NCBI GenBank assembly: GCA_022601595.1
Contig: JAJACI010000004.1
Span: 1,345 to 65,344 of the forward strand
Direction of reading: 5' to 3'
Length of the DNA stretch: 64,000 nucleotides
Origin: Chlamydiia bacterium
GTDB taxonomy: Bacteria; Chlamydiota; Chlamydiia; Chlamydiales; 2-12-FULL-49-11
Shown: one piece after another, positions 668 through 57,346 of the stretch
How positions within the stretch are numbered: position 1 is the stretch's first letter
How the letters are laid out: every line of letters starts with the position of its first letter
The notes under the pieces: model-generated
Told to the model about the DNA's origin: nothing
Database searches by the model: none
Seen by the model: only the letters and a program-made list of their open reading frames with translations
Position numbers and translations under genes: made by a program

Positions 668-699
668 AGGAGACTCTCCTTAAGGAACCTCTGAAAAAC
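668..699. repeat. degenerate F1 terminal-repeat fragments (ggagactctcc / ggaacctctgaaaaac)
   Basis: Matches the F1 terminal inverted repeat GGAGACTCTGA[AT]AAAC seen at the full copies; no element core is present. Confidence 0.4.
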
Positions 700-946: not shown

Positions 947-1327
947 GTGTCCATGAAGACATATTTTACCATTTTATTCTTATTTTTAGTTTCCTGTAGT
1001 CCCTCAACCCTCTCTGAATGGAGGGTGGAGGGAGTTTCCATTGTAAAAGATTTAGTAGAAGAGCTAAAAGAAATTGATGATTTTAAATCGCTGCAGGCCA
1101 AAAAAGCTTCGATTAAAAAAAAGTATAACAAGCTTGTTGGGGTAATGATAGAAGCGGAAAAATATGAGCAAGAGCAAAACACCTTTTTGCCTGAAAGTTT
1201 TTATAGTGATGCTTTAAAAGCTCAATATATTCGCCTCTACCAAATAGAAGGGTGTAAGGAGCTTTTATTTGCTATTCAAAAGGAAAGTCTGCACAGATTA
1301 GATCTATCTATTACCAAGAAGCTTTAG
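947..1327 (+). CDS. hypothetical lipoprotein
   Basis: 126 aa ORF. The N-terminus MSMKTYFTILFLFLVSCSPS has a signal peptide with a lipobox-like LVSC. The stop codon TAG overlaps the first base of an F1 element. Confidence 0.6.
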   Translation: MSMKTYFTILFLFLVSCSPSTLSEWRVEGVSIVKDLVEELKEIDDFKSLQAKKASIKKKYNKLVGVMIEAEKYEQEQNTFLPESFYSDALKAQYIRLYQIEGCKELLFAIQKESLHRLDLSITKKL

Positions 1328-1486
1328 GAGACTCTGATAAACTGCACTTTTTAGAATTTCTTCAGATTTTTTGAAATACATTCTATTTTGGAGTAAGCGG
1401 CATCCCTCTCGGGATGGGGCGCCACGAAAAATAGAATGGATAAGAAATTTGGAAAATTATAAAACTGCTCGTTTTTCAGAGTCTCC
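1327..1486 (+). mobile_element. F1 MITE-like palindromic element, full copy (160 bp)
   Basis: Termini are ggagactctgataaac ... gtttttcagagtctcc (inverted repeat). The central hairpin is catccc-tctc-gggatg inside an outer stem cattctatttt/aaaatagaatg. It is wedged between the stops of two convergent genes (1327 and 1492). Confidence 0.85.
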
Positions 1487-3716: not shown

Positions 3717-3873
3717 TATAGTCATTACCGTTTCATATGACGCACTAAGCAAATTTTTGTAGCTTTTTGATAAATGCATCTCACTAATATTTAAAATATT
3801 AGCTCGCTGAACCCTCTAAAAATCCCTCAAAAATTCATTGAACAGTACGTCATAAGGAACGCTAACGACTATA
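3717..3873 (+). mobile_element. F2 MITE-like element, full copy (157 bp)
   Basis: Imperfect terminal inverted repeats of about 30 bp, tatagtcattaccgtttcatatgacgcact ... gtacgtcataaggaacgctaacgactata. Central palindrome ctaatatttaaaatattag. TA on both flanks. Lies 27 bp upstream of the CDS at 3900. Confidence 0.8.
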
Positions 3874-3899: not shown

Positions 3900-5195
3900 T
3901 TGCAAGTAGCAGCAACAGTTCCAGTTATCGCAGAGGTGCCAACTCCAGTTAGTGCTGAGGTTAGTGCTGAGGTCAAGTGGATGGAGAGTCATAAGAAGAT
4001 TATAGGTAAGGGTGTTAAAGCAATAGGACCGCTTGATCTGACTATAATAGGGCAAGCATCTTCGGGTGAACCTATGATTGATCTTATCATTGGTGCAACT
4101 TTTCCTTTATTTTCAAAGGTAGTATTAAGTATCTATAAACCTATGGAACCGGATAGAGTGGTTGCCCTATATATAAATGACCGACTTGCCGATTTTTCCC
4201 CCGCAACTAATCTAGTAGAAGAAATTCGATCCCGTGTCTATTCATACTTACACGCTGTTCTGCAAGCAAAGACTGTACCTCAAGCTAAAAGGGTGCAGTT
4301 TTATTTACCATATGATGTTTGTAAGCAGGTTCTTGCTCAAGTGGAACCGTATCGAGACGCAAAAACAGCTCTTTTACCAGAAGTTCAACTTTCGACGATG
4401 ACACTTGATATGTTTAGGAAAAATGCTCTAAGTACAAATGATCCTGATGCTCTTATTGCTATGTCCAAATGGAAAGATCTCAAAGATCCCTCTGGCAGAT
4501 GGGAAGGGCCCTCTGCAAAAATGGTATCTATGCCTAATGTTGATTGGCTGTGCAAGGCTTATGAGCTTTGTTCAGAGGAAGAGTTAGATCAATTGGTAGA
4601 TGTTAGGAAATATTTTCCTGAGGATGATAGTATACCTCTACCCAGGCGTGTTGTTAGGCACAGTCAAGTGTTTGCTCCACATTGCAAACCAATTGCAACA
4701 TTTTTGCAAAAACTTCCCTCTCCCATTGGTATAGATCTTGTGTTGACAGAGCCTGCCAGTTTTGAACTTTTTTCTGACATTGGAAATTTTATGCAAGGAG
4801 CAAAGGCTATACATAGCATAAAATTCCATTTTGAGGGTCCAGGCAATAAGAGAATGTTAAAAAAAGCAGAGGTAGCCGCTCTTGCGCATGCAATAGTGGC
4901 GAGTAAAACTTTAGAAGAGATAGAGTTCAAGGGTTTTGCAATCCCAGAAGAATCTTTTGATCTGTTATTATCTGCAATTTCAGAAACACAGGCACCTATA
5001 GCTGCTCTTGTTTTTGACAATTGCTCGGCAGCAAAACTGGTAAAAAGATTCCAAGTATTTATCCAAAACAATCGTGGGATCATCTATGCATCAATGGAAG
5101 GGGCGAAAGGGGCAAAAGAAGGCTCCCTCGATTATATATCTCCAGATGATGAGGAAAAAGTTTATGACCTTGCTCAGGAAAATCGACCTTCATGA
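3900..5195 (+). CDS. hypothetical protein with LRR-like (RNI-type) C-terminus, paralog 1
   Basis: 431 aa. TTG start preceded by GGGAGG 7 nt upstream. Colinear similarity to 5656..6879: WMESHKK/WLESHKM, NVDWLCKA/NINWLCKA, LEEIEFKGFAIPEESFDLLLSAISETQAP/LEEIHFENFTLTKETFEMLLSAISKTEAP. Confidence 0.8.
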   Translation: MQVAATVPVIAEVPTPVSAEVSAEVKWMESHKKIIGKGVKAIGPLDLTIIGQASSGEPMIDLIIGATFPLFSKVVLSIYKPMEPDRVVALYINDRLADFSPATNLVEEIRSRVYSYLHAVLQAKTVPQAKRVQFYLPYDVCKQVLAQVEPYRDAKTALLPEVQLSTMTLDMFRKNALSTNDPDALIAMSKWKDLKDPSGRWEGPSAKMVSMPNVDWLCKAYELCSEEELDQLVDVRKYFPEDDSIPLPRRVVRHSQVFAPHCKPIATFLQKLPSPIGIDLVLTEPASFELFSDIGNFMQGAKAIHSIKFHFEGPGNKRMLKKAEVAALAHAIVASKTLEEIEFKGFAIPEESFDLLLSAISETQAPIAALVFDNCSAAKLVKRFQVFIQNNRGIIYASMEGAKGAKEGSLDYISPDDEEKVYDLAQENRPS

Positions 5196-5199
5196 TTAA

Positions 5200-5572
5200 G
5201 GAGACTCTGAAAAACGAGCAGTTTTATAATCTCCCAGATTTCTTATAAATCCTATTTTTCATTTCGCTCCATCCCGACAGGGATGCAGCTCACTCCAAAA
5301 TCGGATGTATTTCGTAAAATCTGAAAAATTCTAAAAAGTGCAGTTTATCATCGTCTCCTAAGAAGACTCTGATGAACGAGCAGTTTTATAATCTCCCAGA
5401 TTTCTTATCAATCCTATTTTTCGCTTCGCCCCATCCCGAGAGGGATGCAGCTTACTCCAAAATCGGATGTATTTCAAAAAATCTGAAAAATTCTAAAAAG
5501 TGCAGTTTATCATCGTCTCCTAAGAAGACTCTGAAAAACGAGCAGTTTTATAATCTCCCAGATTTCTTATAA
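5200..5572 (-). repeat. head-to-tail array of F1 elements (2 full copies plus 1 partial, period 162 bp)
   Basis: The units start at 5200, 5362 and 5524. Each begins with g[ga]agactctga[at][ag]aacgagcagttttataatctcccagatttctta. ORF 5372..5572 lies wholly inside the repeats. Confidence 0.85.
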
Positions 5573-5655
5573 ACCCTCAGAACGTGCTCCTCCTTGAAAA
5601 AAAGATCTTGTAGTGGTATGATCTTTACAAAAATCTACCACCAAAGGAAAGTATA

Positions 5656-6879
5656 ATGGAAGCAGTTACCCCAAACCTGCCAGTAAGAGCAGAGTCAGTT
5701 AGTGATGAAAGAAGGTGGCTTGAGAGTCATAAAATGGCAGGTCCCTTTAAGGTAACCGTATCAAATATAGAGCATGAACACCGTAAATATTTTAGCTTTT
5801 ATTTATTTCCAAAAGTCGAGGTGATTGCCTATGAATATTTATCAATGAACCATAATGTGTTAGTTACGACTATAGAGAGTCGAGTTGTTAATTATTATAA
5901 ATTATCTAATGAGCGTGTTGTTACTAAAATCATAGAAATAGTCAAGAGACATTTAAAACCAGCAGCTGTAGATTCTGCAGTGTGTTTTCCATATCATTTT
6001 TGTGAACAGATTCTTCAAGATCTAAAGTGCTATCGAGATACGGAAACTAACGTTTTACCTAAAATTTCTCTTTCAAGTATGACGCTTAGGCGGCTACAGG
6101 AAAGAGTGATCAGTCAAAGAGATGTTGATGGTGCTATTTTACTATCACGTCATAAGTGCAGATTCAGTACACAAATAACAGAGCCATTTAATATTAATTG
6201 GTTGTGCAAGGCGCAGCAATTTTTGGGAGAAAAAAGCATTAGTGAATTGGTAGATCTTGGTGTATATTTTCCTAAAATCCCAAAAAGTTCCCAGCATCCC
6301 AATGAGCATTGTACTTTTGTTCACGGTGAAATATTTCAACCAGGTTGCGCTCCTATTGTAGAATATGTGCAAACCCTTAAATATTTTACGCGCTTAGATC
6401 TAAGTTTGAGCGCTCCTTCTTATTTAGAGCTTTTTACGGGCATTACCAATTTTATGGAGGGGACAGGTCGTATAGAAAGTATATCTTTGACTTACCTCGA
6501 TATGGGATCTTCAAATCGCGTTCTAGAAGAGAATGCGATGGCAGTTCTTGCGCAAGCTATAACAGATAGTAAAGTATTAGAAGAGATACACTTTGAGAAT
6601 TTCACCTTAACCAAAGAGACTTTTGAGATGTTATTATCTGCTATTTCAAAAACAGAGGCGCCTGTGCGCTTTCTCACATTCAACAATTGCTCGACAGGCA
6701 AGCTAGTTGAGAGCTTTAAGACATTCCTTCAAGCTACCCCAAAAATCACCTATGCTACAATGAGAGGGATGAAAGCTGATGCTTTGGACAAAGATTCTGT
6801 GAACTATATCTCAAAGCAAGATGAAAATGAAATTTATCAGCTCTCCTTAGCAAATAAAGCAAATAAAGCAAAAAAATAG
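5656..6879 (+). CDS. hypothetical protein with LRR-like C-terminus, paralog 2
   Basis: 407 aa, colinear with 3900..5195 (see that entry). ATG preceded by aaggaaag. Confidence 0.8.
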   Translation: MEAVTPNLPVRAESVSDERRWLESHKMAGPFKVTVSNIEHEHRKYFSFYLFPKVEVIAYEYLSMNHNVLVTTIESRVVNYYKLSNERVVTKIIEIVKRHLKPAAVDSAVCFPYHFCEQILQDLKCYRDTETNVLPKISLSSMTLRRLQERVISQRDVDGAILLSRHKCRFSTQITEPFNINWLCKAQQFLGEKSISELVDLGVYFPKIPKSSQHPNEHCTFVHGEIFQPGCAPIVEYVQTLKYFTRLDLSLSAPSYLELFTGITNFMEGTGRIESISLTYLDMGSSNRVLEENAMAVLAQAITDSKVLEEIHFENFTLTKETFEMLLSAISKTEAPVRFLTFNNCSTGKLVESFKTFLQATPKITYATMRGMKADALDKDSVNYISKQDENEIYQLSLANKANKAKK

Positions 6880-9584: not shown

Positions 9585-11162
9585 ATGAAGCATTTATTTT
9601 TATCTATCATTTTAGCCATAAGTTCCTTAAGTTCGGATCCTTTCTTTTGGGGCGTGGCAATATCAGAATATCAAAATTCAGGGTCCCAAACGGTATCAAA
9701 TTGCAATTGGGCGGAGTGGGAAAAAAGCAGTGGCAAAGATTCAGGCAGTTCCAATAACCATTTTGAAAATTATGAGACTCATATTGCCGCGCTTGAAGAA
9801 TTAGGGTGCAATGCTTTTCGTTTTTCTGTCGAATGGAGTTTGATTGAAAAGAAAGAGGGTCAATTTGATCTGGCAGTTGTGCAAAGGTATAGAGAGGAAA
9901 TTTTAGCATTAAAAGAGAAGGGGATCACCCCTTTTGTTACCATGCACCATTTTACAGAGCCTTTATGGTTTACGGAAAAAGGCGGGTTTGAAAAGGAGGA
10001 AAACCTCAAGCTCTTTGAGGAATTTGCTATTTTTATTTTCAGGGAGCTGCATGAAGAGGTAACGTATTGGGCGGTAATCAATGAGCCTACGGTAAATGCA
10101 TACATGCCGTATCACTTGGGAAGGTGGCCTCCTGAAAAGGTGGATACTCAAAAAGGGTTCACGGTCTTAAAAAATCTTCTAGAAAGTCATGTAAATGTTT
10201 ATGAGAAATGTAAGGCGATAGATTCTTCTGCCAGGATTGGCTTTGTCCATAGTTTTTTAGCTTTTGAGGCCTATTATCCGTGGTTTCCCGTGGAAGCTGT
10301 TGCTGCCTATTATATGACGAAAAATTGGAATGAATCGGTCGTTAATTTCTTTTTAACAGGAGAACTTAAGGGATCGCTTCCTTTTGCAGGTGCTGTAGAT
10401 TTTAACGATGACCGCGCGCCATTTTCTTTTGATTTTGTGGGGGTAAATTACTATGCCACGCCGATCTTGGCTTTTACTCCTTTTGGAGATGAGTGGATGG
10501 ATGCCTCTTGTCATGAGGGGCAGGTAATGACTGATATGCCTTACCATATTGATCCAGAGGGGTTTTATGAAACCTTGATACGGTGCACCGCTTTTGATAA
10601 GCCTATCTACGTAACGGAAAATGGAATAGCTGATGCAAAAGACGATAGGAGAGCTTGTTGGATTAAGAGTTATACCGATGCTATGTTACGAGCAAAGAGG
10701 GATGGTAGTGATATTAGAGGCTATTTTTATTGGACGTTGTTTGATAATTTTGAATGGTCTGATGGGTATGATATGAAGTTTGGGCTCTTTGATTTGGATA
10801 AGCAAAGTGGAGCTATAAAGTTGAAAGAGGGAGCAAAAGCTTATCAGGAGATTATTCATTCAGGATTTTTCCCCCTTGCAGATATAAAAAAGGTATTTAT
10901 GAAAGATAAGAAAATAGCAGATGCGAAAGAAATGGTTTTATATGTGAAAAAGAGTTGTCCCTATTGTGTAAAGGTGCTCGATTTTTTAGAAAAGAACCAC
11001 ATCAAAATTACCGTGAAAGATGCAGCAGAGCAAGAAAATAGAGAGTATCTTTTAAAAAATGCTCATAAGACGCAAGTGCCTTGTCTTTTTATAAAGGACG
11101 AGCCTATGTTTGAGTCAGATGATATTATTTCTTTTATCAGATCCTCTATTAGCGGGCTTTAA
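9585..11162 (+). CDS. glycoside hydrolase family 1 beta-glucosidase fused to a C-terminal glutaredoxin domain
   Basis: GH1 blocks: FFWGVAISEYQNSG, FRFSVEWS, acid/base INEP, nucleophile YVTENGIAD, and YWTLFDNFEWSDGY. The C-terminal ~80 aa (from about 10917) reads KKSCPYCVKVLDFL...QVPCLFIKDEPMFESDD, a CPYC glutaredoxin. The N-terminus looks like a signal peptide. Confidence 0.85.
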   Translation: MKHLFLSIILAISSLSSDPFFWGVAISEYQNSGSQTVSNCNWAEWEKSSGKDSGSSNNHFENYETHIAALEELGCNAFRFSVEWSLIEKKEGQFDLAVVQRYREEILALKEKGITPFVTMHHFTEPLWFTEKGGFEKEENLKLFEEFAIFIFRELHEEVTYWAVINEPTVNAYMPYHLGRWPPEKVDTQKGFTVLKNLLESHVNVYEKCKAIDSSARIGFVHSFLAFEAYYPWFPVEAVAAYYMTKNWNESVVNFFLTGELKGSLPFAGAVDFNDDRAPFSFDFVGVNYYATPILAFTPFGDEWMDASCHEGQVMTDMPYHIDPEGFYETLIRCTAFDKPIYVTENGIADAKDDRRACWIKSYTDAMLRAKRDGSDIRGYFYWTLFDNFEWSDGYDMKFGLFDLDKQSGAIKLKEGAKAYQEIIHSGFFPLADIKKVFMKDKKIADAKEMVLYVKKSCPYCVKVLDFLEKNHIKITVKDAAEQENREYLLKNAHKTQVPCLFIKDEPMFESDDIISFIRSSISGL

Positions 11163-11177
11163 CAGGGGAGGGTTATA

Positions 11178-11540
11178 TTGTTACATTCAACTATTGAAAC
11201 TACCCTTTTTTTTTATGTGTCTACTAATAAAATAAAGGTTACTGAGTGTAATTCTTCTGGTTCAAGGTTTGTGAACGCTCTTGCTTTGCAAGCGGGATTT
11301 GAGCAAGTGAGTAGAATAGAAGAGGAGGTATTTCTATTTATTCGTTCAGCTGTTGGAAGTGTAGATCAAGGCAGAGAGATCTTCTTTGAGTGTTGTAGTG
11401 AAGGCACGGATTTCGAGAGTGACCTTTATACCATTTGCAATTATTATCTTTTTGGAAAATCTAGAGAGCTTGGGCAAAATTACACAAGCAAGTATGAAGA
11501 GTTTCACTATAAGATGATGCATCTTTTAAGGAGAGTCTGA
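11178..11540 (+). CDS. hypothetical protein (weak)
   Basis: 120 aa ORF with a TTG start and no recognisable motif. The last codons and the TGA stop lie inside the F1 terminal repeat (ggagagtcTGA). Confidence 0.3.
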   Translation: MLHSTIETTLFFYVSTNKIKVTECNSSGSRFVNALALQAGFEQVSRIEEEVFLFIRSAVGSVDQGREIFFECCSEGTDFESDLYTICNYYLFGKSRELGQNYTSKYEEFHYKMMHLLRRV

Positions 11541-11690
11541 TAAACTGTATTTTTTAGAATTTCTTCAGATTTCTTATAAATCCTATTTTTCGTGGCGCCC
11601 CATCCCGACAGGGATGCAGCTTACTCCAAAATAGGGTTTATTCGAGCAATCTGAAAAAAATATTGAAACCAGTGGTTATTCAGACTCTTC
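11530..11690. mobile_element. F1 element, variant/hybrid copy
   Basis: ggagagtctgataaactgt ... catcccgacagggatg ... ggttattcagactcttc. The right arm belongs to the gaataac/tggtttcaataa subfamily also seen at 34083. A further degenerate terminal repeat follows at 11694-11710. Confidence 0.7.
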
Positions 11691-11754
11691 TTTAGGAACC
11701 TCTGAATAACTATACCACTTGCATAATATTGGATATCTTTGTTTATCTTAGGGT

Positions 11755-15475: not shown

Positions 15476-15493
15476 GGAGACTCTGATAAAAAG
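15476..15493 (+). repeat. solo F1 terminal repeat
   Basis: ggagactctgataaaaag lies 3 nt after the rlmD stop codon, with no core or second terminus. Confidence 0.5.
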
Positions 15494-16420: not shown

Positions 16421-16452
16421 AATTATAAAACTGCCGGATTTTCAGAGTCTCC
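16421..16452 (+). repeat. F1 right-arm fragment
   Basis: aattataaaactgccggattttcagagtctcc lies 9 nt after the NUDIX gene stop. Confidence 0.6.
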
Positions 16453-16456
16453 TTTA

Positions 16457-16616
16457 GGAGACTCTGATAAACTACACTTTTTAGAATTTCTTCAGATTTT
16501 TTGAAATAAATCCGATTTTGGAGTAAGCGGCATCCCTGTAGGGATGGGGCGCCATGAAAAATAGGATTTATAAGAAATTTGGAAAATTATAAAACTGCTC
16601 GTTTATCAGAGTCTCC
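16457..16616 (+). mobile_element. F1 element, full copy
   Basis: ggagactctgataaactacac ... catccctgtagggatg ... ctgctcgtttatcagagtctcc. The outer stem here is aatccgatttt/aaaataggatt. Confidence 0.85.
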
Positions 16617-16667
16617 TAAATGAAAGCTCTCCTCTTTTTTATAGTCTGTGTTATAGTCAATAATATA

Positions 16668-16704
16668 GGAGACTCTGATAAGCTGCTCGTTTTTCAGAGT
16701 CTCC
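16668..16704. repeat. 37 bp minimal F1 derivative (two terminal repeats only)
   Basis: ggagactctgataagctgctcgtttttcagagtctcc has 11 bp perfect inverted termini with a 15 nt loop. Confidence 0.7.
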
Positions 16705-24046: not shown

Positions 24047-24084
24047 TTCACTTTCTCATATCTCGTTCCTTGAGATAATGATAT

Positions 24085-24157
24085 GGGGGTTTAGCTCAGT
24101 TGGTAGAGCATCTGGTTTGCAACCAGAAGGTCAGGGGTTCGAGTCTCCTAATCTCCA
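24085..24157 (+). tRNA. tRNA-Ala (anticodon TGC)
   Basis: gggggtttagctcagttggtagagcatctggTTTGCAAccaga...ggttcgagtctcctaatctcca. It has the G3:U70 pair characteristic of tRNA-Ala. Confidence 0.9.
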
Positions 24158-24164
24158 TTTTTTT

Positions 24165-24239
24165 GCGGGTATAGCTCAGCCTGGTTAGAGCGCAACACTG
24201 ATAATGTTGAGGTCCCTAGTTCGAGTCTAGGTATCCGCA
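24165..24239 (+). tRNA. tRNA-Ile (anticodon GAT)
   Basis: gcgggtatagctcagcctggttagagcgcaacaCTGATAAtgttg...agttcgagtctaggtatccgca. Confidence 0.9.
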
Positions 24240-24357
24240 AAATTTTTACTTTAAAAGAATAAGTAATTGATAAAACACGAGGGTTTATTACCTCTTTGTT
24301 AAAAAAATGATAAGTTGATATAATAGATTAAACAATGAAATATCAAGTATTTATTTT

Positions 24358-27311: not shown

Positions 27312-27471
27312 GGAGACTCTGAAAAACGGACAGTTTTATAATCTTCCAGATTTCTTATAAATCTTATTTTTCGTGGCGCCCCATCCCTTCAGGGATGCCG
27401 CTTACTCCAAAATAGGATTTATTTCAAAAAATCTAAAAAGATTCTAAAAGGTGTAGTTTATCAGAGTCTCC
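27312..27471 (-). mobile_element. F1 element, full copy
   Basis: ggagactctgaaaaacggacag ... catcccttcagggatg ... gtagtttatcagagtctcc. Its right end abuts the tgt stop codon (27472-27474). Confidence 0.85.
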
Positions 27472-28617
27472 TTAGATTTCATCGTTTAAGATGGCAGCGC
27501 GCTTTGCGTTCATATAGCGTACCATATAGTGGAGGTTGTGTATGGATGCGAGGCTATGCGCTGTGTATTCATGGGAAGCAAATAGGTGATTGAGGTAGGC
27601 TAGGGAGTAGTTTTTACAGGTATGACAAGGGCAGCCTTCTTCAGGAGGGGAAAAATTGTCTTTGTATATCGCTTTGGTGACTTTAATTCCTCCAGCAGCT
27701 GTGAAAAGCGTGCCGTGGCGTGCCGCTTTTGTTGGGTAGGAGGAGTCGAAGGTGTCTATTCCCAGGGGAATTGCTTCTTCAAGTGACGATAGATCTCCTA
27801 TGCCAAGTAGGTGAATAGGAAACTCTTTGGGAATTTCTGGCACTGTATTGTGAAGGATTTCCATCATCTCGGTTTTGTTTTTCCCAAGACTTCCGCCTAT
27901 TGCAAAGCCGTCAAATGGCTGCTCTCTTAAGATGTGCACACTTTTTTTACGAAGGTTTCCATCCAATCCGCCGTGTACCACATTATACATGGCTTGCTGT
28001 TTTGGATTTTTTAGGTGCTCTTTTAAGGATCGTATTTCCCATCTATGGGTCCTTTCAAATGATTTAAGCAGGTCTTTGTCGGATATGTGGTAAGGAGGAA
28101 GTTCATCAAAAGGGATGATAATATCGGCGCCTAATGACTTTTGTATTTGTATCGATGTCTCTGGGGTGAGCAGCACTTTGCTACCATCTCTATAGGAGCG
28201 GAAGAGAACACCATCTTCTGTTATCTTTAGTACCGATCCTCCTCTATTTTTATTGCCAGAGCTTTTCAGCTCTTTAGCAACGCCGCCATAGGCTAGGGAA
28301 AAGACCTGGAATCCTCCCGAGTCAGTGATTAGCGGCTTATCTCTATTCATAAAAGTGTGCAGCCCGCCCGCCTTTTCGATAACCTCAGGGCCTGGCTGCA
28401 ACAGAAGGTGATAGGTGTTACAGAACATCAACTCAATTCCAATCTCTTCCACCATTTTGCTATCCAGTGCTTTTATCGTTCCATTGGTACCAACGGCCAC
28501 AAATCCTGGAGTGTGGATCACTCCGTGGGGAGTATGAATTTTCCCGACGCGGGCCCCTGATTTTTTGGAGGTGTGGATCACTTCAAAGTGAAAATCGGTA
28601 AGTGTTTGTGTTGTCAT
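27472..28617 (-). CDS. tgt: tRNA-guanine transglycosylase (queuine tRNA-ribosyltransferase)
   Basis: 381 aa with DSGGFQ, GLAIGG-like FAIGGS, and the zinc site CPCHTC...H. Confidence 0.93.
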   Translation of the reverse strand: MTTQTLTDFHFEVIHTSKKSGARVGKIHTPHGVIHTPGFVAVGTNGTIKALDSKMVEEIGIELMFCNTYHLLLQPGPEVIEKAGGLHTFMNRDKPLITDSGGFQVFSLAYGGVAKELKSSGNKNRGGSVLKITEDGVLFRSYRDGSKVLLTPETSIQIQKSLGADIIIPFDELPPYHISDKDLLKSFERTHRWEIRSLKEHLKNPKQQAMYNVVHGGLDGNLRKKSVHILREQPFDGFAIGGSLGKNKTEMMEILHNTVPEIPKEFPIHLLGIGDLSSLEEAIPLGIDTFDSSYPTKAARHGTLFTAAGGIKVTKAIYKDNFSPPEEGCPCHTCKNYSLAYLNHLFASHEYTAHSLASIHNLHYMVRYMNAKRAAILNDEI

Positions 28618-34082: not shown

Positions 34083-34397
34083 GGAGACTCTGAATAACTG
34101 CTGGTTTCAATAATTTTTTCAGATTTCTCGAATAAACCCTATTTTGGAGTAAGGCTCAGCCCTGTAGGGCTGGGACGCCACGAAAAATCTGATTTATAGT
34201 CGTTAGTGTTTCATATGGCGTACTGTTCAATGAATTTTTGAGGGAATTTTGGAGGGTTTAGCGAGCTAATGTTTTAAATATTAGTAAGATGCATTTATCA
34301 AAAAGCTACAAAAATTCGCTTAGTGCGTCATAAGGAACAGTAATGACTATATAAGTAAGCTGGACTAATTATTCAGCATGAGTTATTCAGAGTCTCC
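34083..34397. mobile_element. F1 variant copy interrupted by a nested F2 element
   Basis: ggagactctgaataactgctggtttcaataa ... cagccctgtagggctg ... then F2 (34195-34351) ... gagttattcagagtctcc. Confidence 0.75.
34195..34351 (-). mobile_element. F2 element, full copy, nested inside F1
   Basis: Reverse complement of the 3717-3873 copy along its full length. TA on both flanks. Confidence 0.8.
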
Positions 34398-34453
34398 GTA
34401 ATGCTCATAAAGTAGTTGTGGACAATAGGCTAGATGAACATAGTTGAAATTAA

Positions 34454-34612
34454 GGAGAGTCTGATAAACTGCACTTTTTAGAATCTTTTCAGATTTTTGA
34501 AATACATTCTATTTTGGAGTAAGCGGCATCCCTGTAGGGATGGGGCGCCTCGAAAAATGGAATGGATAAGAAATCTGGGAGATTATAAATCTGCTTGTTT
34601 TTCAGAGTCTCC
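34454..34612 (+). mobile_element. F1 element, full copy
   Basis: ggagagtctgataaactgcac ... catccctgtagggatg ... ctgcttgtttttcagagtctcc. Confidence 0.85.
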
Positions 34613-34616
34613 TTAA

Positions 34617-34776
34617 GGAGAGTCTGATAAACTACACCTTTTAGAATTTCTTCAGATTTTTTGAAATAAATTCTATTTTGGAGTAAGCTGCATCCCTGTA
34701 GGGATGGAGCGCTTCGAAAAATAGGATTTATAAGAAATCTGGAAAATTATAAAATTGTCCGTTTTTCAGAGTCTTC
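34617..34776 (+). mobile_element. F1 element, full copy
   Basis: ggagagtctgataaactacacc ... catccctgtagggatg ... ttgtccgtttttcagagtcttc. It lies 4 bp after the previous copy and 18 bp before the mdh start. Confidence 0.85.
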
Positions 34777-39683: not shown

Positions 39684-41615
39684 TTATTGATTTGTTTCTC
39701 TCATCCGAGCTGTAAGGTTTACCAATCGAGCAATATTTTTTATCAAATAGTCCGCAGCAGTATTAGCTAAAAAGACATTATCTCTATAGGCTTCTTTATA
39801 AAATGTACTTATAGCCTTTGCGCACCTGCCATATGCTAGAGCAGATTCTTGAGGGGGGAGTACCTCTATTCCATCTTCATCTAGAATTTCTGAAAAATCT
39901 TCTTTTTTTATGTTAGGGAGTTCTTCATAGAAAGCAATCTCTAAACACTTTTTGGTATGTCGCCCTGTTTTTGTGTCTTTTATCGGCTCAAAAGCTTTAG
40001 GCATTTTTGCAAACCTAGAAATAAGAGCTCGAATATAGATGATTCTTGTCCAATTTGAAATAATACCTGATTGATAAGCCTCTGCTATTGTACGGCTCAT
40101 TAGCAGGAAATGAGGGTCATCTTTGGGCCAAACAAGCGAGAGTAGCTCTTGATGGTATGGGGTGTGTGTATCTAAAATACCCTTTATATCCTTACCAAAT
40201 TTAGAATCCGGCGCCTTTTGATAAAATACCTCATCTATTTCTTTCTTTAATTGCACTACATCGCCTATTTCAATAAGCCTTGGAATGATCACCTCATCTA
40301 AGATTTTACTTATGATTCCCTCGTTTTTGATAAGGTCTTTTCCATAAATTATTTCCTTTGCCTCGGCGGTATCTGCAGAGAGAAATCTAAGAGAGATACA
40401 CTGTATTAATTTTTTAAATGCATTATGGCCCTTAAATTCTATGGTTGCATTTATTTTTCTCAAAACCTCTACGTTTATATGCTCCTCTTCTGTAAATATA
40501 TGATCGGTAGTTCCTAATTGATCTAGATATGAGGTAACATTTTGATTACAAATGATGGCCCATTGAATCAGTTGATCCTTACCTCTGGCACTATTTAATC
40601 CTATATACATTTTTTTTTCTTTTTTCTTAGGAAGATTTCTACAATAGCTCATTACCTTTATGCAGGAAATAGTAATACGTCTAAGTTCTAATAGGGAAAG
40701 GCATTGTGTTTCTTTCTCTATATTATGCCCCCTATCTAAAAAACTTAAAGCGTGTTCACGAATAAAATCGTAGACTGCTTTGCAGCCGACTTCATCTAGA
40801 GGCTCACCAGTACTCATTATCTCTTTAAACTGCTTATTAGAGCAAGTGCCCTTGCATGCTTCAAAAATTTTATAAAATTGAGTTGAAAAATGAACGATAT
40901 CATCATGATAGAGCGGCAGTCTAGAATTATATATAAGCAGCATAAATGCTTTTTGTTCCTCTGAAAATTCTTTTGATTGATTAATCGAGTCTAAACAACT
41001 CTTTCGAAACTGATAAGACGATACAATGTGCATTAATCTTTGCTCTGGAGACAGCGCTTCAAAATCAGCTTTTTTTGCAGCTTTTGCAGCCTTCTTCTCT
41101 TGTTCTCTTGCTTTCCGTCTAGCTTTTTTTGCAGCCTTTTGTTCGGCTTGTGCAGCCGCCGCCGTCTCTTCTGCTTCAACCCTTTCTTTTTCTTTCGCCT
41201 CAAGTTTTGCTTTCTCTTTTTGCAAACGCTCTTCCTCGCCTTTTGCCTCTTTTTCTCCCTGCTCTATTTTTAGGCTCTCATCTCGTATGATCTGTTGGCA
41301 CTTTGTTTTAGCAAAAAACCTCCTTACGATACTTTGAATCTTAACAGAAGATGTTTCTTCTTTTTCCGCTTGAAGAGCTCTGCTTTTTTGTTCCTCTATA
41401 CGCCGCATCTTTTTAAGCACCGCTCTTATTTTCTTTCCACCCTCAGTCATAGTCCCTTCTTGGTTAGGAAACTTAAGACGAAGACCATCAAGCGTGTAGT
41501 ACAATGATCTTTCTTTTTTCTCTTCAGGGGATTGTGTAGCCCGCACCTCTGCATGAAGGTCCTTTGTCTGTACAGCAGCTTTTAGGTGTAGGGGCTGGTC
41601 AGTGCATCCATTCAT
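39684..41615 (-). CDS. IQ-motif / Lys-Ala-rich family protein, member A (643 aa)
   Basis: IQSIVRRFFAK (nt 41307-41339), then an E/K-rich tract and AAKKARRKAREQEKKAAKAAKKA, then a ~440 aa domain of unknown type. Paralogous to the next three genes. AAGGAG lies 8 nt before the ATG. Confidence 0.8.
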   Translation of the reverse strand: MNGCTDQPLHLKAAVQTKDLHAEVRATQSPEEKKERSLYYTLDGLRLKFPNQEGTMTEGGKKIRAVLKKMRRIEEQKSRALQAEKEETSSVKIQSIVRRFFAKTKCQQIIRDESLKIEQGEKEAKGEEERLQKEKAKLEAKEKERVEAEETAAAAQAEQKAAKKARRKAREQEKKAAKAAKKADFEALSPEQRLMHIVSSYQFRKSCLDSINQSKEFSEEQKAFMLLIYNSRLPLYHDDIVHFSTQFYKIFEACKGTCSNKQFKEIMSTGEPLDEVGCKAVYDFIREHALSFLDRGHNIEKETQCLSLLELRRITISCIKVMSYCRNLPKKKEKKMYIGLNSARGKDQLIQWAIICNQNVTSYLDQLGTTDHIFTEEEHINVEVLRKINATIEFKGHNAFKKLIQCISLRFLSADTAEAKEIIYGKDLIKNEGIISKILDEVIIPRLIEIGDVVQLKKEIDEVFYQKAPDSKFGKDIKGILDTHTPYHQELLSLVWPKDDPHFLLMSRTIAEAYQSGIISNWTRIIYIRALISRFAKMPKAFEPIKDTKTGRHTKKCLEIAFYEELPNIKKEDFSEILDEDGIEVLPPQESALAYGRCAKAISTFYKEAYRDNVFLANTAADYLIKNIARLVNLTARMRETNQ

Positions 41616-41646
41616 AGTTAGATCTCCTTATAGTGAAAAAAGAAAT

Positions 41647-41675
41647 AAGATACTATAGACAAAAAATTAGGTAAA
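41647..41675 (-). promoter_or_regulatory. conserved promoter-like block upstream of family member A
   Basis: On the minus strand: TTTACC, 17 nt, TATCTT. The same architecture lies upstream of all four paralogs. Confidence 0.4.
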
Positions 41676-41714
41676 CAGAAATAAATTATCAATTATTACT
41701 TATGAGAATCTCCT

Positions 41715-41873
41715 TTAGATGGAAGCTCTCATTTCCCTTTCTAGAATTACGCACCACCCTATTTTTTTAAATAATTCAGCTGCAGCAAAGAGCGCAGGAT
41801 GTAGATAATCAAGATATGCTTGATAGTGATCATTTATTTGATTTAATTTATCACCATATAAAATGTAAGGCAT
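41715..41873 (-). CDS. possible small ORF (52 aa) between family members B and A
   Basis: Hand-translated as MPYILYGDKLNQINDHYQAYLDYLHPALFAAAELFKKIGWCVILEREMRASI. AAGGAGA lies 7 nt upstream, directly after the stop of gene B. That SD-like sequence may only be a degenerate F1 terminus. Confidence 0.25.
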   Translation of the reverse strand: MPYILYGDKLNQINDHYQAYLDYLHPALFAAAELFKKIGWCVILEREMRASI

Positions 41874-41885
41874 CGTAGAATCTCC

Positions 41886-43871
41886 TTACGTTTGGGCGGC
41901 TTTCATTTGTTTTTCCATTTGGAGTAGTGGACCAATGGCTTTAAGAATAAATACCACCTGTGCCCTTAGATTGAATAAAGGAATACCTATATAATTGATA
42001 TGGATATGACTTATTCTAATTATGAGATCTCTATATTTCTCATAACTTTTTGTTTTTGTTAATTTCTCAATACTTCGATCACAAAGAGCAGGATTTAGAT
42101 ACGTTTCTTGGTTAAGGTTTAGCTTGCACATAAGCACAGCGGTAAGAGCTTTTGATACGATTTTTCCTGTTTTTTTAGCAACGCAGTCAGCTATCATAGA
42201 ATCCTTATCTTTTAAAGATAAAAGTATCGCGTGTAAAGAAAGTATTCTAGAATATGGGCTGATAGCACCAGCTTTATAGGCTTCGTCTATTGTATTTCGA
42301 AGAGCGTCTTCCATCACGTCTACCTTTGCCTCTTTTTCAACCAATTTATCAAGAAGAAGTTGATGGAATGGCTTAGGCTCTTGTAACATGGAATAAATTT
42401 TTTCTGCAAAAGGGGGGAGATCGCTTGTTTGTAAATATACCTTTTCTGTCCATATTTTAGTGAACTCTTCTATACTACCTAGATCTACGATTATTGGACT
42501 AATAGCCTGTAAAATATTGTGATATAACCCCCCTTTTTTCATGTCATCATTGAATATAGCACTTCTTGCTTGTATGATGCCTTGCTCTTTAGGATTTAAA
42601 GATAGAACCTCCGTAAGCATTTTATAAGATATTGTACCAGGTAAAGGAAGAAGTTTTTGTAAAACTTCTGAGAGAGACTGATCTGTTAGAACCCTTTGTT
42701 TTTTTAATCGTTTGATAGATGAGCTGATTTTTAATCTATAAGTTCTTGCTTCACTATTTAGGGTTTTCTCCCACGTTACTAACTTTTCCATTGCGGGGAT
42801 ATGGTGCTCAGAAGTAGTATTAGTAGCTTTATTAATAGATAGTACATTTTCACTAAGTTTATGAATGGTGTCTAGCATTTTCATATATATAGGCTTAATT
42901 TCTTGATAGGCAAGTGAAGGAGGTAGCGTTTCTGTACTCGTAGCTTCTTGAAGCAACTGCTCTATAAAAGTATAGACTTTACAAATCTTACCTCCTAGGT
43001 TTCCACTAACACCTTCATTCTCAGTCAATAATGCTTTAATCTTATCAAAATCCCCCCCTTTTTTCATCAATAAAATAATTAATTTGTAACATTTAAGAGT
43101 ATAAGGACTAATTAGTTGTGGAAACATAGGAAGCTTAGACATAAATATATGTTTAAGAAAATCCTTTTGCTCCTTATCAAAATCTTTATTCTTTAATCCT
43201 TCTTCATACACCTTTTTACGAAATTTTTCTGTAGATGCAATTTGAAGGAGTCTTTTATCCTGTTGCTCTTTTTCTAGTGGGGTGCTCGGTTGCGGTCTGC
43301 TTACTTTACTTCCACCACCCCCACCTTCTTTTGCTTGAGCAGCAGCAGCTCTTTTAGCCGCCTGTTTTGCTTTTCTTGCTGCTTTTGCTCGAGCTCTTTT
43401 AGCTGCCTTTTTTTCAGCCTGTGCCGCCGCTTTTGCTTCTGCTTCAACCTTTGCTTTTTCTTCCGCCTCTAATTTATTTCTTTGAGCTTCTAATTCCTTT
43501 TTAGACTCATCCACCTTTTGTAATTTCTCTTCTTCTTTCCCTTTGGTTTCCTGTTCACCTGGAAGTTTATCTATTTGTAATTTTTGGAGCTTTGTCACAG
43601 CAAGATATCTTCTCATAACACTTTGAATTTTAGCCGCCTGTTTTGCTTTTTTGCGAAGAGCTAACCTTATCTTTTTAGCCTCTTTTCTCTGAGCTAAAAA
43701 ACCTTTTCTCTCTTTTTCTTTGCGCTTTAAGGCAGTTTTTCTATGTAATTCGATAAAGAGCTTTTGTATTGTATCCCTATATTTTAATTTGAAACCTTGA
43801 AGCCTAAAATCTTTTGATCGCCCTTCAGGATTATCCGTAGCGGTAGAATTTCTATTCACGGTACTAGACAT
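41886..43871 (-). CDS. IQ-motif / Lys-Ala-rich family protein, member B (661 aa from Met16 of the track ORF)
   Basis: IQSVMRRYLAV (43596-43628), an E/K coiled-coil-like tract, AEKKAAKRARAKAARKAKQAAKRAAAAQAK, then GGGGGSKV. The C-terminal domain is similar to member A. I prefer the ATG at 43871 (AGAGG upstream) to 43916. Confidence 0.8.
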   Translation of the reverse strand: MSSTVNRNSTATDNPEGRSKDFRLQGFKLKYRDTIQKLFIELHRKTALKRKEKERKGFLAQRKEAKKIRLALRKKAKQAAKIQSVMRRYLAVTKLQKLQIDKLPGEQETKGKEEEKLQKVDESKKELEAQRNKLEAEEKAKVEAEAKAAAQAEKKAAKRARAKAARKAKQAAKRAAAAQAKEGGGGGSKVSRPQPSTPLEKEQQDKRLLQIASTEKFRKKVYEEGLKNKDFDKEQKDFLKHIFMSKLPMFPQLISPYTLKCYKLIILLMKKGGDFDKIKALLTENEGVSGNLGGKICKVYTFIEQLLQEATSTETLPPSLAYQEIKPIYMKMLDTIHKLSENVLSINKATNTTSEHHIPAMEKLVTWEKTLNSEARTYRLKISSSIKRLKKQRVLTDQSLSEVLQKLLPLPGTISYKMLTEVLSLNPKEQGIIQARSAIFNDDMKKGGLYHNILQAISPIIVDLGSIEEFTKIWTEKVYLQTSDLPPFAEKIYSMLQEPKPFHQLLLDKLVEKEAKVDVMEDALRNTIDEAYKAGAISPYSRILSLHAILLSLKDKDSMIADCVAKKTGKIVSKALTAVLMCKLNLNQETYLNPALCDRSIEKLTKTKSYEKYRDLIIRISHIHINYIGIPLFNLRAQVVFILKAIGPLLQMEKQMKAAQT

Positions 43872-43900
43872 AAACAACCTCTTATAATAAAAAAAGAAAG

Positions 43901-43929
43901 AAGATACTACAATCATAAGATTAAGTAAA
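43901..43929 (-). promoter_or_regulatory. conserved promoter-like block upstream of family member B
   Basis: On the minus strand: TTTACT, 17 nt, TATCTT. Confidence 0.35.
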
Positions 43930-44083
43930 CTCTGAAAAACGGACAGTTTTATAATTTTCCAGATTTTTGATATATCCTATTTTTCGTTTCGCCCCATCCC
44001 TACGGGGATGCAGCTTACTCCAAAATAGAATACCTTTCAAAAATCTGAAGAAATTCTAAAAAGTGTAGTTATTCAGAGTCTCC
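43925..44083 (-). mobile_element. F1 element, left terminus truncated/degenerate
   Basis: aaactctgaaaaacggacag ... catccctacggggatg ... gtagttattcagagtctcc. Shares the private variants cgtttcgcccc and aatagaatacctttc with the copy at 46199. Confidence 0.8.
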
Positions 44084-44117
44084 TTAAGTAAATTAAAACG
44101 ATGATCTACTTTTGCTG

Positions 44118-57216: not shown

Positions 57217-57275
57217 GGAGACTCTGAAAAGCCGGCAGTTTTATAATCTTCCAGATTTCTTATAAATCCTATTTT
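57217..57275 (-). repeat. F1 arm fragment directly after the MFS stop codon
   Basis: ggagactctgaaaagccggcagttttataatcttccagatttcttataaatcctatttt then diverges. A second degenerate terminus lies at 57294-57310. Confidence 0.65.
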
Positions 57276-57346
57276 TTCCCCCCCCTCCATCTAATAGGTG
57301 ACTCTGATGAATTTCTGCGATACAATGAAAGTGATAAAGATTTCTT

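What the first reader, a model, noticed from the sequence alone, without database searches (positions are those of the whole stretch)
1327..1486. F1: a dense family of ~160 bp palindromic TIR elements that sit against stop codons, with compensatory changes in the hairpin
I count about 11 full-length copies, starting at 1327, 5200, 5362, 11530, 16457, 27312, 34083, 34454, 34617, 43925 and 46199. There are also about 10 fragments in the 64 kb.

Structure:
- The termini are inverted repeats GGAGACTCTGA[AT]AAAC.
- The whole element is an imperfect palindrome with a central hairpin CATCCC-nnnn-GGGATG. The loop varies (tctc, gaca, gaga, tgta, ttca).

Signs of selection for a folded structure:
- In the copy at 34083 the inner stem reads CAGCCC-tgta-GGGCTG (34157-34172). 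That is a double compensatory change, T:A to G:C.
- The outer stem also differs in paired fashion between copies: cattctatttt/aaaatagaatg at 1327 versus aatccgatttt/aaaataggatt at 16457.

Placement:
- Most copies lie close to a stop codon. Seven begin or end within about 15 nt of one (stops at 1327, 1492, 5195, 11540, 16412, 27472 and 46372). The fragments at 15476 and 57217 also follow stops directly.
- The junction usually reads TAA|GGAGACTC. This suggests either TTAA/TAA target preference or a terminator or RNA-stability role.

No transposase gene is present in the window.
Basis: partly seen in the sequence, partly recalled or inferred. Interest (0 to 1): 0.7.

Follow-up and report, generated by a model that had tools for sequence, protein, structure and literature searches.

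The report
Chlamydial MITE family inserting at stop codons
The repeats are a real, previously undescribed family of about 160-bp non-coding mobile elements (MITEs) that has multiplied in a sponge-associated chlamydial genome. They often sit at gene ends mainly because their 4-bp TTAA-like insertion site contains a stop codon, so this is an ordinary kind of element in an unusual host.

Summary
The copy at 34083 is interrupted by a second nested repeat.

Each copy ends in the inverted repeat GGAGACTCTGA(A/T)(A/T)AAC. Most are flanked by a 4-bp direct duplication: TTAA most often, also TTAG, GTAA, TAAA and TATA.

Contig depth in the source sponge metagenome implies hundreds of copies. In syntenic DNA, a relative at 83% RlmD identity has one copy, at a different site. 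Three relatives at 60-65% have none. The family is therefore mobile and recently expanded.

The same termini, with CTAG/CTAA/TTAA/TTAG duplications, flank unrelated GC-rich elements in other phyla. They also resemble E. coli IS5 ends, which make a 4-bp YTAR duplication. An IS5-like transposase acting in trans is the likely driver, but none was found.

Stop-codon adjacency is real: 5-6 of 12 insertion blocks against 6% expected. It falls to marginal once the TAR-containing target is allowed for.

Compensatory pairs exist (about 8) but mostly define subfamilies. Orientation is random relative to transcription and there is no terminator signature. This is a new member of a known kind.

The parts
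1327..1486 (+). Full F1 copy (160 bp), consensus orientation A. It lies between convergent ORFs. TA plus the first G of the terminus forms the TAG stop of ORF 947-1327. The SurE stop (1492-1494) is 5 nt from the right end.
   Evidence: (174.6 bits)
5200..5358 (-). Full F1 copy, first unit of a 162-bp tandem array. TTAA abuts the TGA stop of ORF 3900-5195.
5362..5520 (-). Full F1 copy, second tandem unit. It shares the mutated ends (CGTCTCC / GAAGACTC) with the first unit, which indicates tandem duplication rather than an independent insertion.
5524..5577 (-). Truncated third tandem unit (HMM positions 107-160).
11530..11690 (-). Full F1 copy, chimeric: one arm is of the subfamily-2 type. The doubtful ORF 11178-11540 ends at the TGA inside the terminus.
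15476..15491 (+). Solo terminus GGAGACTCTGATAAAA, directly after the TAATAA at the rlmD stop. It is absent from the orthologous spacer of L103.
16421..16452 (+). Right-end fragment (HMM positions 129-160), joined by TTTA to the next full copy.
16457..16616 (+). Full F1 copy in the NUDIX-MFS spacer. The orthologous spacer in L103 is 109 nt and empty.
16668..16704 (.). 37-bp mini-element consisting of the two termini only, flanked by TATA/TATA.
27312..27471 (-). Full F1 copy flanked by TTAG/TTAG. The right-hand TTAG contains the TAA stop codon of tgt (minus strand, 27472-27474).
34083..34397 (+). Subfamily-2 F1 copy (34083-34194 plus 34350-34397 = 160 bp, 99.8 bits) flanked by GTAA/GTAA. It is interrupted by a nested 155-bp F2 element (34195-34349). 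The central stem reads CAGCCC/GGGCTG.
34454..34612 (+). Full F1 copy in a divergent intergenic region. It shares a TTAA with the next copy.
34617..34776 (+). Full F1 copy, 18 nt upstream of the mdh start codon.
43925..44083 (-). Full F1 copy flanked by TTAA/TTAA, between two co-directional large paralogous ORFs. It lies 9 nt from a start codon and 34 nt from a stop codon.
46199..46358 (+). Full F1 copy flanked by TAAA/TAAA, 13 nt from the stop at 46372.
57217..57290 (-). 74-bp fragment (HMM positions 88-160). It begins immediately after the TAA stop of the MFS gene, and that TAA lies in a TTAA.

Best explanation

**Proposed mechanism**
- A DDE transposase encoded elsewhere, most likely of the IS5 family (IS5 group), binds the 16-17-bp termini GGAGACTCTGA(A/T)(A/T)AAC. 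*This step is inferred.*
- It inserts the element at a 4-bp AT-rich target (TTAA, then TTAG/TAAA/GTAA/TATA). That target is a local version of the YTAR target of IS5 and is duplicated on insertion. *The duplication is shown; the link to IS5 is inferred.*

**Why copies sit at stop codons** *(inferred, with a statistical test)*
- YTAR contains TAA or TAG on both strands, so stop codons are themselves targets.
- The duplication leaves the gene its own stop codon. Insertion there is therefore harmless, whereas insertion inside genes or promoters is removed by selection.
- The result is the recurrent TAA|GGAGACTC junction.

**History** *(shown)*
- The family burst recently in this lineage. Copies have since decayed by tandem duplication, internal deletion to solo termini, and nesting of a second MITE family.

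**The hairpin** *(inferred)*
- The long hairpin and its paired substitutions are properties of the fold-back architecture and its subfamilies. They are not evidence of a host function.
For: **Termini and duplications**
- The terminal motif is hugely over-represented, and 11 full copies are recognised by a profile HMM.
- Perfect 4-bp flanking duplications include non-palindromic ones: TTAG at 27312, GTAA at 34083, TAAA at 46199 and TATA at 16668, plus TTAA at 34454/34617, 43925 and L029.

**Copy number**
- Word depth at the element in the source sponge metagenome is about 60,000-626,000, against about 470 for single-copy DNA.

**Mobility**
- Syntenic loci from relatives were compared by RlmD identity.
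- L103 (83%) has a single F1, at a site that is empty in the window. It has none at the window sites 15476 and 16421-16704, and none at the SurE 3' end.
- L104, L107 and L108 (65%, 63% and 60%) have none in 21 kb each.
- Another sponge chlamydial MAG has a full copy and a solo terminus, both with a gene's stop codon inside the flanking TTAA (L029).
- Subfamily-2 copies without the nested F2 exist elsewhere in the genome: a joint skips 155 nt, with 4 nt shared at the junction.

**Link to IS5**
- Eight or nine unrelated GC-rich 155-175-bp elements from other metagenomes, and one from an Acidobacteriaceae MAG, have the same 11-nt termini. They are flanked by CTAG, CTAA, TTAA or TTAG.
- E. coli IS5, read here, has ends GGAAGGTGCGAACAAGTCCC and GGAAGGTGCGAATAAGCGGG and a CTAA duplication. 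These match 13 of 20 positions with those elements and 10-11 of 20 with F1.
- The YTAR target of IS5 is documented in PMC5009759.

**Stop codons**
- 5-6 of 12 insertion blocks lie within 5 nt of a stop codon, against 6.3% of candidate positions (binomial p about 4e-5 for six blocks, about 5e-4 for five).
- 13-19% of TTAA/YTAR sites outside coding sequence touch a stop codon.

**Against a transcript-level role**
- Orientation relative to transcription is mixed: 3 copies one way, 5 the other.
- No terminator or promoter consensus lies inside the copies within 1-20 kb.
- There is no Rfam family match.
Against: - No autonomous element with these termini was found in the window, in the fetched loci or in plasmid records. 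The transposase family is therefore inferred only from terminus similarity and duplication length.
- A match of 10-11 of 20 positions to IS5 ends is weak on its own.
- Several copies have imperfect duplications: 1327 TTTA/TTAA, 16457 TTTA/TAAA, 11530 TTAA/TTTA. The tandem units at 5200-5577 are separated by 3 nt, not 4.
- TAAA, GTAA and TATA are not strictly YTAR.
- The stop-codon excess is not fully removed by the target model: p = 0.003-0.016 with six blocks, 0.017-0.06 with five.
- Paired double changes exceed the shuffles on cell-based measures.
- The A strand folds at -57 to -64 kcal/mol in every copy, while the opposite strand ranges from -40 to -59. Some constraint on structure is therefore not excluded.
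Confidence: 0.8

Rival explanations
1. F1 is, or has become, a host-selected structured RNA element at mRNA 3' ends. It would act as a transcription terminator, an mRNA-stabilising hairpin or an RNase III processing site, and the hairpin would be maintained by selection.
For: - The long hairpin is very stable (z about -8).
- 8 stem positions show changes on both sides, and cell-based covariation measures exceed all 500 shuffles.
- The central 48 nt and the hairpin are the least diverged parts (0.09-0.11, against 0.16-0.18 in the arms).
- In co-directional spacers, 6 of 8 blocks lie in the stop-proximal 16% of the spacer.
- A-strand folding energy is uniform across copies.
Against: - No stem followed by a U-tract lies in or at the end of any copy (sequence).
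- The A strand is the transcribed sense in only 3 of 8 co-directional cases, and folding quality does not follow the transcribed strand.
- Three copies sit between divergent genes (34083-34776).
- The same spacers in sister genomes work without the element.
- Copies decay to fragments.
- The measures that resist relatedness are marginal (reached by 20 of 500 and 32 of 500 shuffles).
- G:U excess on the A strand is mostly inherited: 13 columns against 7.
- Template-switch correction of quasi-palindromes can produce paired changes without selection (established knowledge).
- No RNA data exist to test this.
Confidence: 0.12
2. F1 belongs to the REP/BIME type of repeat, or to an IS200/IS605-like single-strand system, moved by a tyrosine (HUH) transposase that recognises the hairpin rather than the termini.
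For: - The structure is palindromic and the central GC-rich hairpin is conserved.
- Folding energy is strand-asymmetric.
Against: - Such elements make no target duplication and have no terminal inverted repeats. F1 has 16-17-bp terminal inverted repeats and 4-bp duplications, including non-palindromic ones.
- REPs are 20-40 bp with GTAG/CGTC heads (abstract of PMC3733652). F1 is 160 bp with no such head.
- The mini-element 16668-16704 keeps only the termini and still has a TATA/TATA duplication.
Confidence: 0.03

Closest known systems
IS5 (E. coli) and IS5-group insertion sequences, as the presumed autonomous partner type
   Same: - Both make a 4-bp target duplication at YTAR-type sites. IS5 in L105 is flanked by CTAA/CTAA, and its YTAR motif is documented in PMC5009759.
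- Both have ends that start GGA, with T at position 7 and GA(A/T)NAA at positions 10-15. F1 matches 10-11 of 20 positions. Elements from other phyla with the same first 11 nt as F1 match 13 of 20.
   Different: - F1 is 160 bp and non-coding, whereas IS5 is 1195 bp with a transposase gene.
- F1 prefers TTAA and also accepts TAAA, GTAA and TATA.
- No IS5-type transposase carrying F1 termini has been seen.
Correia elements (NEMIS/CREE) of Neisseria
   Same: Both are about 100-160-bp fold-back MITEs. Both occur in hundreds of copies in a small genome, are intergenic and often close to gene ends, and are co-transcribed as long hairpins (from my own knowledge, not tested here).
   Different: - The termini differ, and Correia elements duplicate TA rather than 4 bp.
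- Correia elements have documented promoter, IHF-site and RNase III effects.
- Nothing of that kind is shown for F1.
ERIC/IRU and YPAL elements of enterobacteria
   Same: Both are 127-170-bp imperfect palindromes that lie in transcribed intergenic regions near stop codons. Orientation-dependent effects on mRNA stability are reported for ERIC/YPAL (from my own knowledge).
   Different: There is no sequence similarity. ERIC duplicates TA. Function is untested for F1.
MITECca01 of the Cardinium endosymbiont (PMC9769881)
   Same: Both show a lineage-specific burst of a MITE in an obligate intracellular bacterium. MITECca01 has 169 copies, making 3.5% of the chromosome. F1-derived sequence makes up about 3% of this window.
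   Different: MITECca01 derives from an IS982-family element whose intact parents are present. The parent of F1 is unknown and its termini look IS5-like.
Tourist-type MITEs with PIF/Harbinger transposases (eukaryotes)
   Same: The transposases are IS5-related, the target is TAA/TTA, the elements are small fold-back elements, and they prefer gene-proximal sites (from my own knowledge).
   Different: These are eukaryotic with a 3-bp duplication. There is no sequence relationship.

Membership tests
Prokaryotic MITE | Short (under about 500 bp) and non-coding | tested here: met
   Copies are 159-161 bp. TGA, and TAA in the T variant, lie at terminus positions 9-14 at both ends. No ORF spans a copy.
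Prokaryotic MITE | Terminal inverted repeats | tested here: met
   GGAGACTCTGA(A/T)(A/T)AAC at both ends; 29 matches against 0.1 expected.
Prokaryotic MITE | Target-site duplication | tested here: met
   Perfect 4-bp duplications at 27312 (TTAG), 34083 (GTAA), 46199 (TAAA), 16668 (TATA), and 43925, 34454 and L029 (TTAA). Four copies differ at one position.
Prokaryotic MITE | Many dispersed copies | tested here: met
   11 full copies plus fragments in 64 kb. Depth ratio is about 130-1300 in the source metagenome.
Prokaryotic MITE | Presence/absence differences at orthologous sites | tested here: met
   L103 lacks the insertions at the window sites 15476 and 16421-16704 and carries one where the window is empty. 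L104, L107 and L108 have none.
Prokaryotic MITE | Autonomous element with the same termini that supplies the transposase | tested here: inconclusive
   None was found in the window, in 108 fetched loci or in plasmid records. The rest of the genome could not be searched.
IS5 family, IS5 group (as mobilising partner) | 4-bp duplication of a YTAR target | tested here: inconclusive
   TTAA and TTAG fit. TAAA, GTAA and TATA do not fit strictly. Elements from other phyla with the same termini have CTAG, CTAA, TTAA or TTAG. The IS5 reference has CTAA.
IS5 family, IS5 group (as mobilising partner) | Ends that begin GG and resemble IS5 inverted repeats | tested here: inconclusive
   F1 matches 10-11 of 20 positions. 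The bridging elements L095 and L099 match 13 of 20.
IS5 family, IS5 group (as mobilising partner) | DDE_Tnp_1-type transposase between the ends | not testable with these tools
   No full-length element is available.
Correia / NEMIS | 26-bp Correia termini and a TA duplication | tested here: not met
   The termini differ and the duplication is 4 bp. The Correia terminus sequence is from my own knowledge.
REP/BIME (RAYT-associated) | 20-40-bp palindromes with a GTAG/CGTC head, no terminal inverted repeats and no duplication | tested here: not met
   F1 is 160 bp with terminal inverted repeats and 4-bp duplications. The definition is from the abstract of PMC3733652.
Intrinsic (rho-independent) terminator | GC-rich stem followed directly by a U-tract | tested here: not met
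   None of the 29 terminator-like sites in 1-20 kb lies in an F1 copy. The central hairpin is followed by GGGCGCC or CCGCTTAC.
Any Rfam family | Score at or above the gathering threshold | tested here: not met
   Only tRNAs reach the gathering score. At E up to 1 there are only far sub-threshold matches to plant miRNA-precursor hairpins, the best at 36.8 bits against a threshold of 119.

The most novel reading that the evidence does not exclude
The F1 hairpin may be under strand-specific structural selection. The A strand folds at -57 to -64 kcal/mol in every copy, whichever way the copy faces its neighbouring genes. The centre is the best conserved part, and paired substitutions occur.

On this reading, one of two things would hold:
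- The element propagates through a single-stranded intermediate of fixed polarity, despite having terminal inverted repeats and target duplications.
- It has been recruited as a general 3'-end RNA structure in an intracellular bacterium whose convergent genes otherwise abut or overlap with no room for terminators.
Probability: 0.1. Interest if true: 0.6.

Novelty: new member of a known kind. Interest (0 to 1): 0.3.

Why it matters
- **First of its kind in this phylum, as far as I could find.** The full-text searches returned no paper that appeared, from title and abstract, to describe a MITE in Chlamydiae. The genome paper for sponge-associated chlamydiae contains none of the words transposon, palindrome, insertion sequence or mobile, and uses "repeat" only in an unrelated sense.
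- **A recent burst in a small genome.** Hundreds of copies, about 3% of the sequence here, show that these reduced intracellular genomes can still undergo bursts of mobile DNA.
- **Practical consequences.** The element breaks assemblies: the NCBI contig ends inside a copy. Gene callers can also mis-set 3' ends at these sites.
- **Use as markers.** Insertion differences could serve as strain markers among sponge symbionts.
- **A simple account of stop-codon adjacency.** A YTAR/TTAA target contains a stop codon on both strands, and the 4-bp duplication leaves the gene's own stop intact. This explains why such elements hug gene ends without invoking a function.
- **A wider group.** The same termini and duplications in unrelated elements from other phyla point to a widespread, uncharacterised IS5-like group.

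Tried and rejected
**Scans that failed or were wasted**
Only L029 (a Chlamydiia MAG) and L030 were relevant.
- The metagenome scan with the terminus plus interior found nothing.
- The scan for a pair of termini found same-terminus elements in other phyla, but no chlamydial copies and no insertion sequence.
- The viral-contig scan found nothing.

**Search for an autonomous partner**
- Inverted terminus pairs 0.8-3.5 kb apart in the 90 chance loci gave no convincing insertion sequence.
- BLAST of 40-nt termini against plasmids gave only chance hits.
- ORFs next to the elements in L098 and L101 do not look like an insertion sequence.

**Literature and RNA data**
- A literature search for the terminus string returned only primer sequences.
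- The single candidate RNA run does not cover the window. Transcript ends could not be examined.

**Empty sites from read data**
- Related low-coverage marine metagenomes gave contigs too short to be useful. Orthologous loci fetched through RlmD homologues worked instead.

**Ideas rejected**
- *A TA duplication with a one-base-longer terminus (IS630-like).* The non-palindromic 4-bp duplications rule it out.
- *The left flank of site 1327 as an orthologous empty site.* The ORF there is not homologous to the L103 neighbour.
- *ORF 11178-11540 as a real glutaredoxin gene cut by the element.* It shows no real similarity to the orthologues.
- *Strand asymmetry of G:U pairs as evidence for an RNA of fixed polarity.* It is mostly inherited from the founder.
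Full report
**Source of the window**

The window has about 38% G+C. It carries ordinary bacterial genes: surE, an rlmD-type methyltransferase, NUDIX, MFS transporters, tgt, mdh, rpsI and dsbB. Identical proteins and DNA are found in a sponge-metagenome assembly (GCA_022599525.1 contig JAHZIM010085833.1; ENA ERZ23492364) and in three sponge-metagenome runs. RlmD homologues named by their sources are from Chlamydiia. The window is therefore a chromosome segment of an uncultured sponge-associated chlamydia.

Yes.

- GGAGACTCTGAWAAAC occurs 29 times at up to 2 mismatches, against 0.1 expected.
- A profile built from the copies recovers ten intact 159-161-bp copies at 138-175 bits in one orientation. 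The opposite orientation scores only 53-66 bits. The element is therefore an imperfect palindrome with a definable polarity, which I call A.
It is a 160-bp copy of a second subfamily, flanked by GTAA/GTAA. A 155-bp member of another repeat family (F2) is nested at 34195-34349. Removing F2 restores a full match of 99.8 bits.
- The source metagenome holds contigs that join 34194 to 34350 directly, with 4 nt shared at the junction.
- Fragments include a truncated tandem unit (5524-5577), a 74-bp piece (57217-57290), a 32-bp right end (16421-16452), a 37-bp mini-element made of the two termini only (16668-16704, flanked by TATA/TATA) and a solo terminus (15476-15491).
- Both strands fold into a single long hairpin with z about -8.

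**Copy number**

In run X1, single-copy parts of the window have word depth of about 470. Positions inside F1 sum to about 60,000-626,000. That corresponds to hundreds of copies. The figure is rough, because contigs from more than one carrier genome may be summed. Within the window, F1-derived sequence makes up about 3%.

**Mobility**

Most copies are flanked by 4-bp direct repeats. The informative ones are non-palindromic:

- TTAG/TTAG at 27312
- GTAA/GTAA at 34083
- TAAA/TAAA at 46199
- CTAA/CTAA in the related element of L098

These exclude a 2-bp TA duplication with a longer terminus. TTAA is the commonest duplication. Four copies differ at one position.

Orthologous DNA gives direct evidence of movement.

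- L103 is from a relative whose RlmD is 83% identical. It is collinear with window 1-20.8 kb and has exactly one F1, between the tilS-like and SEC-C genes, where the window has none.
- L103 has no F1 in the rlmD-NUDIX spacer: TTTTTAA|AGAAT, against TAATAA[GGAGACTCTGATAAA]AAGAAT in the window.
- It has none in the NUDIX-MFS spacer: 109 nt, GCTTTTCAATGAAAGC, against 315 nt in the window holding a fragment, a full copy and a mini-element.
- It has none at the surE 3' end.
- Three more distant relatives (65%, 63% and 60% identity) have none in 21 kb each.
- A different sponge chlamydial MAG (L029, from Haliclona oculata by its sample name) has a full copy flanked by TTAA/TTAA and a solo terminus.

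The family is therefore confined to a narrow clade and expanded strongly in the window's lineage. The 5200/5362/5524 array shares private end mutations and a 162-bp period, so it arose by tandem duplication rather than by three separate insertions.

**Which transposase?**

None is in the window. I could not retrieve an autonomous element.

Indirect evidence points to the IS5 family, IS5 group.

- A scan for the 11-nt termini in inverted orientation 123-153 nt apart found elements in JGI and other metagenomes with completely unrelated, GC-rich interiors.
- Those elements share the termini GGAGACTCTGAT(C/T)AAGT and have 4-bp flanks CTAG, CTAA, TTAA or TTAG, which is YTAR.
- An Acidobacteriaceae MAG holds a similar 217-bp element with CTAG flanks.
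- I read E. coli IS5 from an annotated genome. It is 1195 bp, with ends GGAAGGTGCGAACAAGTCCC and GGAAGGTGCGAATAAGCGGG and the duplication CTAA. Its YTAR preference is documented (PMC5009759).
- The metagenome elements match IS5 ends at 13 of 20 positions (GGA...T..GAaCAAGT). F1 matches at 10-11 of 20.

This similarity is a lead, not a proof. Other families also make 4-bp duplications (IS701, from my own knowledge).

**Why next to stop codons?**

I grouped the copies into 12 independent insertion blocks.

- Five of them (1327, 5200, 15476, 27312, 57217) have an end within 5 nt of the stop codon of a credible gene.
- A sixth (11530) touches the stop of a doubtful ORF.
- Only 6.3% of candidate positions (intergenic positions plus stop codons, with elements removed) are that close. 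The binomial p is about 4e-5 for six blocks and about 5e-4 for five.

The target explains much of this. YTAR is Y followed by TAA or TAG, and the same holds on the other strand. In-frame stop codons are therefore targets, and a 4-bp duplication leaves the gene's stop intact. Several junctions show exactly this:

- The tgt stop lies in the right-hand TTAG of 27312.
- The MFS stop lies in the TTAA at 57217.
- Both L029 junctions have a stop inside the TTAA.
- In L103, surE and its convergent neighbour overlap in a single CTAG that holds both stops.

Among TTAA, YTAR or observed-type 4-mers not wholly inside coding sequence, 13-19% touch a stop codon. The remaining excess is modest: p = 0.003-0.016 for six blocks, 0.017-0.06 for five. 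Selection against insertions on the promoter side of short spacers would explain it. In co-directional spacers, 6 of 8 blocks lie in the stop-proximal 16% of the pre-insertion spacer.

**Is the hairpin selected?**

On 12 copies, 8 of 59 predicted pairs show changes on both sides, against 3.6 +/- 1.2 in shuffles (0 of 500 reach it). On 15 copies, the count of such pairs is 8 against 4.9, reached by 20 of 500 shuffles, and pair types are reached by 32 of 500. Cell-based measures still exceed all shuffles, but those are the measures that relatedness inflates.

It is one inherited event.
- The two outer-stem doubles (A:U to C:G and C:G to U:A) separate haplotype groups. Intermediates with G:U or a mismatch are present.
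- A-strand folding energy is uniform (-57 to -64 kcal/mol), while the other strand varies (-40 to -59). However, G:U pairs on the A strand are mostly fixed founder features: 43 cells in 13 columns, against 8 cells in 7 columns for the reverse type.
- Folding quality does not follow the transcribed strand.
- No terminator-like or promoter-like consensus site falls in a copy.
- No Rfam family matches. Only sub-threshold hits to plant miRNA-precursor hairpins appear, which reflects the long-hairpin shape.
- No usable RNA data exist.

I conclude that there is a tendency to keep the fold-back. It cannot be assigned to RNA-level selection. DNA-level correction of quasi-palindromes, and descent from a few master copies, are sufficient alternatives.

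**Comparison with known systems and novelty**

- In kind, F1 is a bacterial MITE. It resembles Correia, ERIC/YPAL, RUP and the Cardinium MITECca01, which has 169 copies making 3.5% of its genome.
- It fails the definitions of REP/BIME elements and of intrinsic terminators.
- Full-text searches returned no paper that appeared, from title and abstract, to describe a MITE in Chlamydiae. The sponge-chlamydiae genome paper contains none of the words transposon, palindrome, insertion sequence or mobile.
- It is therefore a new family in a new host group, of a well-known kind.

**Verdict**

The structural-selection and terminator reading is not demonstrated. Interest is modest.

Noticed in passing
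window 3717-3873, 34195-34349, 50082-50238: A second MITE-like family (F2) of about 155 bp, with inverted ends TATAGTC(A/G)TTA..GTT.C.TATG.CG and TATA-type flanks. The copies are 85-92% identical. Interior depth is about 41,000-75,000 against 470, so roughly 100 copies. One copy is nested inside an F1 copy.
   Followed up: partly
L094-L102 (JGI and other metagenome contigs) and L030:4084-4300: Unrelated GC-rich 155-217-bp elements from other phyla carry the same 11-nt termini (GGAGACTCTGA, then T(C/T)AAGT). They are flanked by CTAG, CTAA, TTAA or TTAG. This suggests a widespread IS5-like transposon group with these ends.
   Followed up: partly
window 39684-48270: Four consecutive minus-strand ORFs of 632-676 aa (39684-41615, 41886-43916, 44118-46115, 46372-48270) have no Pfam match. 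A 76-nt stretch is 86% identical between the first and the last (41301-41376 / 47956-48031). This looks like a tandem paralogue family, with F1 copies in two of its spacers.
   Followed up: no
window 3900-5195 and 5656-6879: Two ORFs without Pfam matches flank the F1 tandem array and share a 123-nt stretch at 72% identity (4875-4997 / 6541-6663). This region differs in gene content between the window, L103 and L104.
   Followed up: no
window 684-699 and about 11694-11709: Two sequences, GGAACCTCTGAAAAAC and GGAACCTCTGAATAAC, resemble the F1 terminus with the same two differences. One lies next to tRNA-Asp and the other directly after the F1 copy at 11530. They may be remnants of a related terminus variant.
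   Followed up: no
window 24084-24240: tRNA-Ala(TGC) and tRNA-Ile(GAT) lie side by side with no rRNA gene detected anywhere in the window. This pair usually sits in the rRNA spacer.
   Followed up: no
L106:13574-13861 (NCBI contig JAHZIM010085833.1, its end): The public contig ends inside a pair of adjacent F1 copies, so the element is breaking short-read assemblies of this genome.
   Followed up: partly
window 9585-11162: The precomputed Pfam hits for this 525-aa product in the public assembly include glutaredoxin/GST_N domains. In the relatives L103, L104, L107 and L108, glutaredoxin is a separate gene of 105-139 aa at this position. This may be a gene fusion or a mis-call.
   Followed up: no
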